This document shows positions 16,968-19,560 of a DNA stretch of 64,000 nt, piece after piece (within the stretch, counting starts at the first letter, position 1; each line of letters opens with the position of its first letter). Origin of the DNA: Candidatus Woesearchaeota archaeon. GTDB taxonomy: Archaea > Nanobdellota > Nanobdellia > SCGC-AAA011-G17 > JACPIM01. Made by a program: the position numbers and the translations under genes. The notes below the pieces were generated by a model, which did no database searches, was not told the DNA's origin, and saw only the letters and a program-made list of their open reading frames with translations. The stretch covers positions 15,691 to 79,690 of the forward strand of contig CAYWEX010000002.1 of NCBI GenBank assembly GCA_964457785.1, given 5' to 3'.

Positions 16968-17651
16968 CTATTTCTTTGCTCCTTTTGATTTTTTAGCTTT
17001 AGTTTCTGTTTTAGTTTTTTTAGCTTTGGGTTTTTCTATTTTAACTTTAGGCTCTTTTTTTGCCTCTTTTTTCTCAACAACTTTTTCTTCCTTTTTTATT
17101 TCTTTTTTCTCAGGAAGAACTTTCTTTTCCTTCTTCTGCTTCTCTTTTATTTCATAACCCAATACTTTTAACTCTCTTTTTATTGTTTCAGAAGCTTCAT
17201 TCTTTTTTATCTCTAATTTTTTATCTAAAGTTTTTAAATGAAGAACGTTACATTTTCTTCTTCTTACCTGGCCATCAATTAATACAAAATTATCATCTAT
17301 TTTATCAACAACAACACATACTGAACCTGCTTCTCTTCCTGCTGTTTTTATACAAATCTGGCCTAAATCTAATGGAAGCTCTTTAAGATCTTTGAATTTT
17401 TCTATTATTTTTTCTCTTGAACAGTTTGAACATAAGTTTCCACCATAAGGTCTAGCTACTGTTTTTTGGGAATAAGGCAGGTTTCTAAAATCAGAAGGCC
17501 TTTCTCGAGGAATACCAATTAATTCTTTATGGCAATTACCGCATTTTGCTATACTTGGTTTTCTTTTTTCATAATGAGTAACTAACCTATTTCCAGGAGT
17601 ACGAACTTGAATTCTTCTTAAGCTTCTTGTTGCCTGTGGTTGTATTGCCAT
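16968..17651 (-). CDS. Fusion of ribosomal proteins eL34 (N-terminal) and eL14 (C-terminal) with a Lys-rich tail
   Basis: aa 1-~88: RSLRRIQVRTPGNRLVTHYEKRKP...CGNC...GGNLCSNC (eL34 zinc ribbon). aa ~95-165: GQICIKTAGREAGSVCVVVDKIDDNFVLIDG...RRRKCNVLHL (eL14 KOW). Single uninterrupted frame. Confidence 0.8.
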   Translation of the reverse strand: MAIQPQATRSLRRIQVRTPGNRLVTHYEKRKPSIAKCGNCHKELIGIPRERPSDFRNLPYSQKTVARPYGGNLCSNCSREKIIEKFKDLKELPLDLGQICIKTAGREAGSVCVVVDKIDDNFVLIDGQVRRRKCNVLHLKTLDKKLEIKKNEASETIKRELKVLGYEIKEKQKKEKKVLPEKKEIKKEEKVVEKKEAKKEPKVKIEKPKAKKTKTETKAKKSKGAKK

Positions 17652-17707
17652 TTTAATTCATTTTTACCTTTTCATTGCCCTTTATAAACTCTATTTTTTT
17701 TGACATT

Positions 17708-18160
17708 TTAGTGTATTTTTAATATTTTTCTTAAAGCTATGCTGAATATTATTGAAAACAATATGTAGGAACCAAGCCACCCAAGTTCAATTCCAAAAGG
17801 TAGGTTTAATAATATTTTTTCTGGTGGAAAAGTTGTTCTTAACCAACCAAATATTAATAACAATGGCAATAAAGTTACCAATGTTGCTGGCATGGAATGT
17901 TTCAAGTATTTCATACTTGTTTCCATTGACTTTTTTTGTATTTCTATTAATTTTTGAGGATCATTTTTAAACTTTTTCATTTCCTGCTTAAAGAATTCGG
18001 TTTCTTCTTTTAGGGATTTCATGACATTTTGATTGGTGAAAAATTTCATTGCCAAGTTTACAATTAATGTCAAAATAAAAGAAATTATAATAATATCCCA
18101 AGGACTACCTAAAGCTAAAATAGGTCCAAAGATAAAATTGAAGAAACTTTCTAATGCCAT
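17708..18160 (-). CDS. DUF106 / archaeal YidC-Oxa1-EMC3-like insertase
   Basis: 3-TM topology with the charged coiled hairpin KSLKEETEFFKQEMKKFKNDPQKLIEIQKK; canonical position after secY. Confidence 0.7.
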   Translation of the reverse strand: MALESFFNFIFGPILALGSPWDIIIISFILTLIVNLAMKFFTNQNVMKSLKEETEFFKQEMKKFKNDPQKLIEIQKKSMETSMKYLKHSMPATLVTLLPLLLIFGWLRTTFPPEKILLNLPFGIELGWLGSYILFSIIFSIALRKILKIH

Positions 18161-18165
18161 TTTAT

Positions 18166-19560
18166 TTATTCTATCATTTTCCTTAGAGCTGGATTCATGT
18201 CTGCCATGTGCTGCTTTGTAATATCTTCATATAGTCTATATATAATCATTACTGTAAGAAGAATTCCAGTACCGCTTGATAAGGCGCCAAGCAAGTCAGC
18301 TACTGAAGCTAAAACACCAACTACTATGGCTCCCATTACTGTTAATGGAGAGATATATCTTTCCAGCAATCTTTCAATAACCCTGGGATCACGTCTAAAT
18401 CCAGGAACTTGTAAACCCGAACTAATTATTTGTTTTGCCTGGGATGAAGCATCCATTCCAGATGTTTGAACCCAAAAAACTGAAAATATGATTGAACCGA
18501 CTACAAAAGCCAAAACATAAACCAAAGATTTAAGCAACAGTATTGGGGCGAAACTTCCACCAAGGATTTCAGCTGGCAAATTAGGAGCAAATAACCAAGC
18601 AACTAAACCAGAAGTTGGAACATTTCCTGCAAAAGTCCCTAAAATAGGACGGCCCCAGCTTTCTAATAATCTTGCCCATAACTGAATATTTGCAAATAAA
18701 GCTGCAATTAAAATTACTGGAATATTTGAGGTGTAAATAAATTTCAAAGGCCATCTTATACCATGACCCCTTATTCTTCCAAAACTTAATGGAATTTCAA
18801 CTTTCATTGATTGTGCGTAAACAGCAACTACAAAGATTAAAACTGTAAAGAAAATTAATGCTGCTGCTAAAAATGCTTCTCTTGGATTTCTTCCAATTAA
18901 TGACAAGAAAAATACCCACAACTGACCTACAGGACTTTCTCCTGAACTAAATGCAAGTGTTCCTGCTCTTGTTAATGGAGAAAATATTCTTATAAAAATC
19001 TGCGATGAAACTCCAGCAGCTATAAACAATGATATACCAGAACCAAAACCCCATTTATTCAATACTTCGTCCATGAACATAACTATAACACCACCAATAA
19101 ATAATTGTATAATTAAAAATATTTGAATCAAGAGGAAACTTTGCTGATCTGGTGCAGGTGCAAGTCCACCGAGATAAACATATACAATTGCTTCAAAAAT
19201 TATGAAAAATATTGCTGCTATTTTCTGAACTCCCTGAAATTTCATTCTTCCTTCTTTTGTTGTTGTGTCAAATTTTATTATTTCAGAACCTACCAACAAC
19301 TGAAGAACTATAGAAGCAGTTACTATAGGACCAATACCTAAAGACAAGATACTGCCAAAACTAGCTCCCAATAATATAGACAAGGATTCAAATTGAGACA
19401 GAGCATTTTGCCCCAAGCCATATAAAGGAACTATGCTTAAAATAAAAAAAGCTGATAAAATAATCAAAGTCCATTTTAGTTTTATATTAAAAGCCAGATA
19501 TTTTTCTTCTGGCCCCTTTACTTCCGGCAGTTTATGAATTATATTCTCGAGAATACTCAT
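18166..19560 (-). CDS. secY: Preprotein translocase subunit SecY
   Basis: 10-TM SecY with a typical archaeal N-terminus (LPEVKGPEEK...) and operon position after uL15. Confidence 0.95.
   Translation of the reverse strand: MSILENIIHKLPEVKGPEEKYLAFNIKLKWTLIILSAFFILSIVPLYGLGQNALSQFESLSILLGASFGSILSLGIGPIVTASIVLQLLVGSEIIKFDTTTKEGRMKFQGVQKIAAIFFIIFEAIVYVYLGGLAPAPDQQSFLLIQIFLIIQLFIGGVIVMFMDEVLNKWGFGSGISLFIAAGVSSQIFIRIFSPLTRAGTLAFSSGESPVGQLWVFFLSLIGRNPREAFLAAALIFFTVLIFVVAVYAQSMKVEIPLSFGRIRGHGIRWPLKFIYTSNIPVILIAALFANIQLWARLLESWGRPILGTFAGNVPTSGLVAWLFAPNLPAEILGGSFAPILLLKSLVYVLAFVVGSIIFSVFWVQTSGMDASSQAKQIISSGLQVPGFRRDPRVIERLLERYISPLTVMGAIVVGVLASVADLLGALSSGTGILLTVMIIYRLYEDITKQHMADMNPALRKMIE

What the first reader, a model, noticed from the sequence alone, without database searches (positions are those of the whole stretch)
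16968..17651. eL34 and eL14 are fused into one gene, and cmk and adk are missing from the secY-distal operon
One uninterrupted 227-codon frame encodes a complete eL34 zinc-ribbon protein (aa 1-~88), a short linker (junction ~17367-17396), a complete eL14 KOW protein and a ~55-aa Lys-rich tail. In many archaea the order is secY-adk-DUF106-rpl34e-cmk-rpl14e. Here adk is absent between secY (18166) and DUF106 (18160), and cmk is absent. The fusion is therefore most simply explained by deletion of cmk with in-frame joining of its neighbours. A covalent fusion of two large-subunit proteins constrains where both can sit on the ribosome, which makes it an unusual natural experiment.
Basis: partly seen in the sequence, partly recalled or inferred. 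Interest (0 to 1): 0.6.

Follow-up and report, generated by a model that had tools for sequence, protein, structure and literature searches.

The report
Fused eL34-eL14 ribosomal protein gene
A tiny groundwater archaeon (Woesearchaeota, DPANN) makes two normally separate large-subunit ribosomal proteins, eL34 and eL14, as one polypeptide; the fusion is real and inherited across a whole family, and the very short linker implies that the two proteins sit side by side on the ribosome.

Summary
Window 16968-17651 (-) is one uninterrupted 227-codon gene: eL34 (aa 6-86), a 7-residue junction, eL14 (aa 94-173) and a 54-aa Lys-rich disordered tail. It is the only eL34 and the only eL14 gene in the genome.

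It is not an artefact. Contigs from three metagenome runs cover the junction without a difference. The same fusion is intact in 13 of the 16 species-level genomes of the GTDB family (6 of 7 genera, down to about 45% identity) and in about 27 metagenomic protein clusters. Two genomes outside the family carry fusions with unrelated linkers.

The proposed origin, cmk deletion with in-frame joining, is not supported. rpl34e and rpl14e are already directly adjacent, with no cmk, in all 47 unfused relatives sampled and in other phyla. The nearest unfused relatives read rpl34e-TAA-A(A)-ATG-rpl14e, so a tiny junction mutation is enough. Archaeal-type adk and cmk are absent across the order, but two PF00406 ADK-type kinases lie elsewhere in the genome.

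Best mechanistic reading (inferred): the eL14 domain occupies the second archaeal eL14 site on H58, the eL27-like site, beside eL34. This is a new variant of a known kind and of moderate interest.

The parts
16968..17651 (-). Fused rpl34e::rpl14e gene (227 codons plus TAG)
   Evidence: identical in contigs of three runs
17394..17636 (-). eL34 domain (aa 6-86), with the four zinc-ribbon Cys at C37, C40, C74 and C77
   Evidence: Pfam PF01199 98 bits; NCBIfam NF003143 94.2 bits; PDB eL34 chains E about 1e-18
17373..17393 (-). Junction/linker (aa 87-93, KDLKELP). It is made of the native eL34 C-tail and the native eL14 N-terminus. The ancestral rpl14e Met is replaced by Pro.
   Evidence: AF2 pLDDT is 82-83 across aa 81-100. 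There is no in-frame ATG/GTG/TTG here.
17133..17372 (-). eL14 domain (aa 94-173), a KOW/SH3-like barrel plus helix
   Evidence: NCBIfam NF003320 94.9 bits, over the cut-off of 87; Foldseek to archaeal eL14 chains TM 0.77-0.81, rmsd 1.5-1.8 A
16971..17132 (-). Lys/Glu-rich C-terminal tail (aa 174-227), predicted disordered
   Evidence: pLDDT below 50 for aa 175-224; 25 K of 54. Unfused Woesearchaeota eL14 proteins carry the same kind of tail.
17708..18160 (-). DUF106 / EMC3-TMCO1-like membrane protein gene, immediately after secY
   Evidence: PF01956 26.9 bits, E 4.7e-6
18166..19560 (-). secY
   Evidence: PF00344 225 bits
16518..16931 (-). Prefoldin subunit gene downstream of the fusion
   Evidence: PF02996 63.5 bits

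Best explanation
This is a genuine, long-maintained gene fusion of the large-subunit ribosomal proteins eL34 (N-terminal) and eL14 (C-terminal).

Shown:
- The two genes were already neighbours, with no cmk between them, throughout this order of Woesearchaeota.
- In one family the boundary was erased. Its nearest unfused relatives have TAA plus 1-2 nt before the ATG.
- The old rpl14e start Met has since been replaced in every fused lineage.
- The fused gene is the only source of either protein in these genomes.
- The linker is essentially just the native termini: about 10 residues between the last eL34 helix and the first eL14 strand.

Inferred:
- Such a short tether works only if an eL14 binding site lies next to the C-terminus of eL34.
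- Archaeal 50S subunits carry eL14 at two sites. The second site, on H58/ES20L, is the position of eukaryotic eL27, and it lies in the same H58-clamping protein cluster as eL34. The canonical site lies elsewhere, at H41/H25 beside uL6 and eL20.
- The fused eL14 domain is therefore most likely locked into the eL27-like site. This forces 1:1 stoichiometry and co-assembly with eL34.
- The canonical site would then be empty, or filled by a second fusion molecule whose eL34 part dangles.
For: - Domain calls and full-length matches.
- The fusion gene is the only eL14/eL34 match in G000 and in the 96-98% complete congeners G001-G003.
- The fusion is intact in 13 of 16 family genomes, 6 of 7 genera, and in about 27 metagenomic clusters from JGI, ENA, NCBI and Logan.
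- A tree with the 13 fused family members as one clade is not rejected, and its log-likelihood is higher than that of the free search.
- L071 and L086 lie outside the family and have non-homologous linkers.
- Direct adjacency without cmk holds in all 47 unfused relatives. The junctions of the nearest unfused loci read TAAAATG or TAAAAATG.
- No Met is present at the old start in any of 30 fused sequences, and linkers are 5-17 residues.
- The AF2 model of aa 1-175 has pLDDT 84.5 and pTM 0.66, with a confident linker.
- Literature: two eL14 copies per archaeal 50S, with L14e(2) on H58/ES20L at the eL27 position (PMC3553981). Two eL14 chains per entry also appear in recent P. furiosus, T. kodakarensis, S. 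acidocaldarius and P. calidifontis structures.
- Literature: eL27 and eL34 are among the proteins that clamp H58 (PMC7145529).
- Literature: structural proximity regions group eL34-eL27-eL30-uL2-eL43 apart from eL14-eL20-eL21-uL16-uL18 (PMC8686616).
Against: - No coordinates could be read here, so the distance from the eL34 C-terminus to the N-terminus of either eL14 copy was not measured. The site assignment rests on published descriptions.
- No ribosome structure, proteome or transcriptome exists for this lineage, so post-translational cleavage is not excluded.
- Two eL14 sites have been shown for Thermococcales, Crenarchaeota and a few methanogens, not for DPANN.
- AF2 gave no inter-domain error estimate.
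- A pTM of 0.66 is only suggestive.
- One family genome (G004) has the two halves on different contig ends, and one genus (g7) is unfused.
Confidence: 0.65

Rival explanations
1. One reading: the fusion arose when cmk was deleted from an rpl34e-cmk-rpl14e block and its neighbours were joined in frame.
For: Some archaea do have cmk between the two genes (established knowledge; also earlier scan notes). The window has no cmk there.
Against: All 47 unfused genomes of the order already have rpl34e and rpl14e adjacent without cmk. So do loci from Aenigmatarchaeota, Korarchaeota and Thermoproteota and Asgard archaea. Archaeal cmk (TIGR02173) passes its cut-off in only 2 of 31 relatives and in none of the family. 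The sister genus g7 reads rpl34e-TAA-A(A)-ATG-rpl14e.
Confidence: 0.03
2. Assembly or sequencing artefact: a missed stop or frameshift at the junction, so that two separate genes exist in reality.
For: The genome is a metagenome-assembled draft (19 contigs, 86% complete). The region is AT-rich with homopolymers.
Against: Contigs from three runs and three samples cover the junction with 0 differences. The same open frame occurs in 13 species-level genomes from unrelated studies and in about 27 protein clusters at 35-83% identity. The rpl14e start codon is gone in all of them.
Confidence: 0.01
3. The gene is fused, but the proteins function separately. Either the polypeptide is cleaved at the linker, as ubiquitin-ribosomal-protein fusions are in eukaryotes, or eL14 is also made from an internal start. 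Ribosome architecture would then be unchanged.
For: Cleaved ribosomal-protein fusions exist in eukaryotes (ubiquitin-eL40 and ubiquitin-eS31; established knowledge). If two eL14 copies per ribosome are needed, free eL14 would be useful.
Against: No in-frame ATG/GTG/TTG or conserved Shine-Dalgarno sequence lies at the junction. The linker has no conserved cleavage-like motif across genera: PLE[IV]G in some, KIETG or KLEPG in others. The linker is predicted ordered, not an exposed loop. No dedicated protease is known.
Confidence: 0.1
4. The fused eL14 domain sits at the canonical eL14 site (H41/H25, beside uL6 and eL20). Either eL34 has moved, or the DPANN 50S is compact enough for the linker to bridge the two sites. 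The H58 site is unused.
For: The second eL14 site has never been shown in DPANN. Their rRNAs are reduced.
Against: [quoted passage not shown] Linkers as short as about 5-10 residues recur in independent fusions, which calls for directly adjacent sites.
Confidence: 0.12

Closest known systems
Stand-alone archaeal eL34 (rpl34e) and eL14 (rpl14e), e.g. in the P. furiosus, T. kodakarensis and S. acidocaldarius ribosome structures (4V6U/9QF4, 6SKF, 8HKU)
   Same: Both domains are full length and match at E about 1e-18. The eL14 fold superposes at rmsd 1.5-1.8 A. The gene order, rpl34e then rpl14e after secY-DUF106, is the same.
   Different: Here the two are one polypeptide with no start codon for eL14, and the genome has no separate copy of either. 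A 54-aa Lys-rich tail follows, and unfused Woesearchaeota eL14 proteins carry that kind of tail too.
Promiscuous second copy of eL14, L14e(2), at H58/ES20L, and its eukaryotic counterpart eL27 (Armache et al. 2013, PMC3553981)
   Same: An SH3/KOW-type barrel sits in the H58 neighbourhood that also holds eL34. The fusion is what would be expected if eL14 were dedicated to that site.
   Different: Eukaryotes dedicate a diverged paralogue (eL27) to this site. Here no paralogue exists and the dedication would be by covalent tether. The protein shows no Pfam match to Ribosomal_L27e. Occupancy of this site in DPANN is untested.
Eukaryotic ribosomal-protein fusions (ubiquitin-eL40, ubiquitin-eS31, FUBI-eS30)
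   Same: A ribosomal protein is synthesised as part of a larger fusion polypeptide.
   Different: Those fuse a ribosomal protein to a ubiquitin-like chaperone that is cleaved off. Here two structural ribosomal proteins are joined, with no sign of a cleavage site.
Rosetta-stone fusions of adjacent, translationally coupled operon genes
   Same: The fusion arose from neighbouring co-directional genes by loss of the stop/start boundary. It recurs independently, with at least three separate linkers.
   Different: Both partners are rRNA-bound components of one rigid particle, so the linker length reports on their spatial arrangement.

Membership tests
eL34 (Ribosomal_L34e, PF01199 / NF003143) | Profile match over the curated cut-off | tested here: met
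   Pfam scores 98 bits against a cut-off of 27. The NCBIfam equivalog scores 94.2 bits against 97, just under, as expected for a divergent DPANN sequence.
eL34 (Ribosomal_L34e, PF01199 / NF003143) | Four-cysteine zinc ribbon | tested here: met
   C37, C40, C74 and C77 are present in the window protein. They are lost in genus g4 and some metagenomic relatives.
eL14 (archaeal L14e, NF003320; KOW PF00467) | Profile match over the curated cut-off | tested here: met
   NF003320 scores 94.9 bits against a cut-off of 87, aa 94-173. The KOW motif scores 19.9 bits, below the Pfam cut-off of 22.3.
eL14 (archaeal L14e, NF003320; KOW PF00467) | SH3-like barrel fold superposable on solved eL14 | tested here: met
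   Foldseek gives TM 0.77-0.81 and rmsd 1.5-1.8 A to eL14 chains of 9QF4, 8HKU and 6SKF.
Canonical secY-adk-DUF106-rpl34e-cmk-rpl14e block | adk between secY and DUF106 | tested here: not met
   There is a 5-nt gap between secY and DUF106. Archaeal adk NF003122 is over the cut-off in 0 of 31 relatives. PF00406 kinases lie elsewhere.
Canonical secY-adk-DUF106-rpl34e-cmk-rpl14e block | cmk between rpl34e and rpl14e | tested here: not met
   There is no room for it in the fused gene. It is absent at this place in all 60 relatives. TIGR02173 is over the cut-off in 2 of 31 genomes, and those matches are elsewhere.
eL27 (functional analogue considered) | Sequence membership in Ribosomal_L27e | tested here: not met
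   No L27e family appears among the Pfam or NCBIfam hits at E <= 0.1. The C-terminal domain is an orthodox eL14.
eL27 (functional analogue considered) | Binding at H58/ES20L next to eL34 | not testable with these tools
   This needs coordinates of 6SKF, 9QF4 or 8HKU, or a structure of a fused-lineage ribosome. Only literature descriptions were available.

The most novel reading that the evidence does not exclude
The fusion is a natural covalent cross-link that dedicates the only eL14 of these archaea to the eL27-like site beside eL34. One DPANN family, and at least two other lineages independently, would then have solved the 'promiscuous eL14' problem by tethering, where eukaryotes solved it by evolving the paralogue eL27. 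Their ribosomes would have a vacant or remodelled canonical eL14 site. Loss of the conserved GNRA hairpin that precedes rpl14e in unfused relatives would mark the loss of separate control of eL14 dosage.
Probability: 0.4. Interest if true: 0.7.

Novelty: new variant of a known kind. Interest (0 to 1): 0.5.

Why it matters
Both partners are rigidly placed on rRNA, so a conserved fusion with a linker of about 10 residues works as a natural distance restraint. It predicts that an eL14 site lies directly beside the C-terminus of eL34. That supports the second archaeal eL14 site and the proposed origin of eukaryotic eL27 from it.

The fusion also forces a 1:1 eL34:eL14 ratio in organisms that have no other eL14 gene. 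This makes the occupancy of the two eL14 sites a concrete, testable question for DPANN ribosomes.

In practice, annotation pipelines label these proteins only as L34e, so eL14 can be wrongly scored as missing in these genomes. That matters for marker-gene completeness estimates and for phylogenies built on concatenated ribosomal proteins.

Tried and rejected
- Stops inside relatives. The '1 TGA inside' flags looked like junction stops. Translation showed they are only the terminal stops, overrun by the alignment of the tail.
- G018. It seemed fused because both matches reported an open frame of 254 aa. ORF extraction showed two separate genes.
- Same-frame bias. In the genome contigs set, 66 of 77 unfused pairs are in the same frame. 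I reject this as biology. The tool keeps the 80 best tblastn matches, and in-frame pairs give one long HSP. In the unbiased sample only about a third are in frame.
- Independent origins from the tree. The 162-column tree cannot reject one clade holding all 15 fused rows (p-AU 0.377). The case for independence rests instead on taxonomy (G061 and G062 are not in family f1) and on non-homologous linkers.
- Literature. I found no explicit statement of an eL34-eL14(2) contact or distance, and no prior report of the fusion. One guessed PMC id was wrong.
- Rfam. No known RNA family was found in the spacers of 12 unfused loci.
- Public names. No source names the fused proteins.
- RNA-seq. No RNA runs hold this stretch. 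Only three DNA runs from one groundwater study do.

Full report
**1. What is in the sequence**

The minus strand of window 16968-17651 holds one open frame of 227 codons, from ATG to TAG, with no internal stop.
- NCBIfam places archaeal L34e on aa 6-86 (94.2 bits) and archaeal L14e on aa 94-173 (94.9 bits, over its equivalog cut-off of 87). Pfam Ribosomal_L34e scores 98 bits.
- Against PDB sequences, aa 7-85 align to residues 6-83 of the 89-91-residue eL34 of Thermococcales. Residues aa 94-166 align from residue 2-4 of archaeal eL14.
- Both proteins are therefore complete. The join consists of little more than their native termini.
The tail is 54 residues with 25 Lys, and the whole protein is 26.1 kDa with pI about 10.
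- Upstream lie secY and, 5 nt later, a DUF106/EMC3-like gene. Downstream lies a prefoldin gene.

**2. It is real and maintained**

- Logan contigs from three groundwater metagenome runs (three samples, one study) cover 17360-17400 without a single difference.
- The window's genome is 0.80 Mb in 19 contigs and 86% complete. It has no other eL14 match. The 96-98% complete congeners likewise show only the fused gene.
- A protein search returned about 27 further clusters of 190-240 aa with both domains, at 35-83% identity, from JGI, ENA, NCBI and Logan assemblies.
- The GTDB family has 16 species-level genomes in 7 genera. In 13 genomes of 6 genera the frame is intact across the junction.
- The 'TGA inside' flags in those results are only terminal stops.
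- Record titles identify the group as Woesearchaeota, i.e. Nanoarchaeota/DPANN.

**3. How the fusion arose**

The comparative data contradict that.
- In every one of the 47 unfused genomes sampled from the order, the eL34 and eL14 matches are directly adjacent on one strand, with no room for cmk.
- The same adjacency is seen in Aenigmatarchaeota, Korarchaeota and Thermoproteota loci and is described for Asgard archaea (PMC10833476).
- The one unfused genus of the family (g7: G009, G013) and the nearest unfused loci in the tree read rpl34e-TAA-A-ATG-rpl14e or TAA-AA-ATG.
- A 1-4-nt change at the boundary, removing the stop and restoring the frame, is therefore enough.
- In all 30 fused sequences aligned, the position of the old rpl14e Met holds another residue (P, K, S, I and others). 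No in-frame ATG/GTG/TTG is present at the window's junction. The fusion is therefore old, and there is no obvious internal start.

How many times it happened:
- A maximum-likelihood tree of the two domains puts all family members in one well-supported group (SH-aLRT 96).
- Constraining the 13 fused members to a clade gives a higher likelihood than the free quick search. A single fusion after the split from g7 fits the data.
- Two further fused genes, L071 and L086, belong to genomes outside the family. Their linkers are unrelated and longer, and L086 has an acidic tail instead of a basic one. I read these as independent fusions, although the short protein tree alone cannot prove it.

**4. adk and cmk**

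- Archaeal cmk (TIGR02173) passes its cut-off in only 2 of 31 relatives, and in none of the family.
- Archaeal adk (NF003122) passes in 0 of 31.
- Their absence from the operon is therefore an old trait of the order, not an event tied to the fusion.
- The genome is not without such kinases. Two tandem PF00406 (ADK/UMP-CMP kinase family) genes lie on another contig (G000:C1:35807-37023, 148-159 bits). Most family members have at least one.

**5. How it most likely works**

Shown: about 10 residues separate the end of the last eL34 helix (aa 85) from the first eL14 strand (aa 98). One metagenomic variant has only about 5, and the independent fusions have 14-17.

Structure predictions:
- AlphaFold2 on aa 1-175 with 30 fused sequences gives mean pLDDT 84.5 and pTM 0.66. 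The linker scores pLDDT 82-83, so it is not predicted as a floppy loop.
- The tail (aa 175-224) is predicted disordered.
- The eL14 part superposes on solved archaeal eL14 at rmsd 1.5-1.8 A.

Inferred: a tether this short requires an eL14 site immediately next to the C-terminus of eL34. The literature points to one.
- Armache et al. showed two eL14 copies per archaeal 50S. [quoted passage not shown] L14e(2) sits on H58 and the tip of ES20L, the place of eukaryotic eL27 (PMC3553981).
- Two eL14 chains per entry are also present in recent P. furiosus, T. kodakarensis, S. acidocaldarius and P. calidifontis structures.
- In yeast, eL27 and eL34 are among the proteins that clamp H58 (PMC7145529).
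- Structure-derived proximity regions group eL34-eL27-eL30-uL2-eL43 separately from eL14-eL20-eL21-uL16-uL18 (PMC8686616).
- In archaea, canonical eL14 contacts uL6 and eL20 (PMC9932298).

I therefore think the fused eL14 domain occupies the eL27-like site. This gives obligatory 1:1 stoichiometry and co-assembly with eL34. The canonical site would be empty, or would bind a second fusion molecule with its eL34 part free. I could not read coordinates, so this step remains inference.

**6. Rivals**

- An assembly artefact is excluded for practical purposes (section 2).
- Cleavage into two proteins or internal initiation cannot be excluded without proteomics. However, there is no start codon and no conserved cleavage-like motif, and the linker is predicted ordered (about 0.1).
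- Placement at the canonical site would need a long reach that linkers of 5-10 residues do not allow, according to published descriptions (about 0.12).

**7. Novelty**

- Full-text searches found no report of an eL34-eL14 fusion.
- Public sources give the proteins no name, and the precomputed Pfam annotation lists only L34e.
- Earlier notes of this scan record the same fusion in three other genomes of the clade and reach similar readings. I reached the core points independently here.
  - the boundary sequence of the nearest unfused relatives;
  - the universal loss of the old start codon;
  - the fusions outside the family;
  - contig-level confirmation in three runs;
  - the PF00406 kinases;
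  - the spacer hairpin.
- It is a new variant of a known kind: fusion of adjacent operon genes, both orthodox ribosomal proteins. Its particular value is as a natural distance restraint.

**8. Side finding: a spacer hairpin in unfused relatives**

- In 54 of 77 unfused loci the rpl34e-rpl14e spacer carries a hairpin capped by G[GNRA]C. These 54 are nearly all of those with a spacer of 30 nt or more.
- Among the 48 copies extracted for pair counting, the cap is GGCGAC in 27, GGUGAC in 16, GGCAAC in 4 and GGUAAC in 1.
- The pair next to the closing G-C is a standard pair in all 47 distinct copies, with five different pair types. With a slid register, 38-40% are paired.
- Strict hairpins of this form are about 60 times denser in these spacers than in the rest of 1.2 Mb of loci.
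- No Rfam family matches.
- An outer stem often pairs the bases just after the rpl34e stop with those just 5' of the rpl14e Shine-Dalgarno sequence.
- This looks like a position-specific cis-element controlling rpl14e. It is absent from the compact-junction relatives, and necessarily from the fused genes.

Noticed in passing
Unfused relatives, e.g. L029:4244-4300, L036, L049, L027, L031 (spacer between rpl34e and rpl14e); absent from the window: A conserved hairpin capped by G[GNRA]C (GGCGAC, GGUGAC or GGCAAC) occurs in 54 of 77 unfused Woesearchaeota loci. Its stem covaries: the first pair is 100% paired with 5 pair types. An outer stem joins the rpl34e stop region to the rpl14e Shine-Dalgarno region. 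There is no Rfam match, and the element is about 60-fold enriched in this spacer. It is a candidate translational operator or processing site for rpl14e.
   Followed up: partly
G000 contig C1:35807-37023 (outside the window): Two tandem PF00406 (ADK / UMP-CMP kinase family) genes score 148-159 bits. They probably replace the archaeal-type adk and cmk that are missing from the ribosomal operon across the order.
   Followed up: partly
G000 contig C10:25916-26251 (outside the window): A 165-aa P-loop kinase ORF matches archaeal cmk TIGR02173 only weakly (53.8 bits, positions 2-115 of 169). It is conserved at similar length across the order. It may be a different nucleotide kinase, for example Fap7/AK6-like, and not cmk.
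   Followed up: no
L100 (G004:C23 end) and L101 (G004:C15 end): In one family genome the eL34 half and the eL14 half lie at the ends of two contigs, broken exactly at the junction. The eL34 frame runs on for 20 unrelated codons, and the eL14 half has no start codon. This is either an insertion into the fused gene or an assembly break. It is unresolved.
   Followed up: partly
L013 (G006), L102 (G011), P0024-P0029: In genus g4 and related metagenomic sequences, all or nearly all of the zinc-ribbon cysteines of the eL34 domain are replaced (for example by D/P/T and S). The zinc site has been lost while the fusion is kept.
   Followed up: no
L086:2671-3546: This independently fused eL34-eL14 has a long acidic (D/E-rich) C-terminal tail in place of the Lys-rich one. 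That suggests a halophilic lineage.
   Followed up: no
window 17681-17688 (-): A TTTATAAA box lies 34 nt upstream of the fusion gene's ATG, in the 56-nt spacer after the DUF106 gene. It may be an archaeal TATA box giving the fusion gene its own short-leader transcript.
   Followed up: no
Related-loci output: Method note. The 80 loci kept are ranked by tblastn E-value, which favours gene pairs in the same frame because they give one long HSP. This produced a spurious excess of in-frame pairs, 66 of 77.
   Followed up: yes
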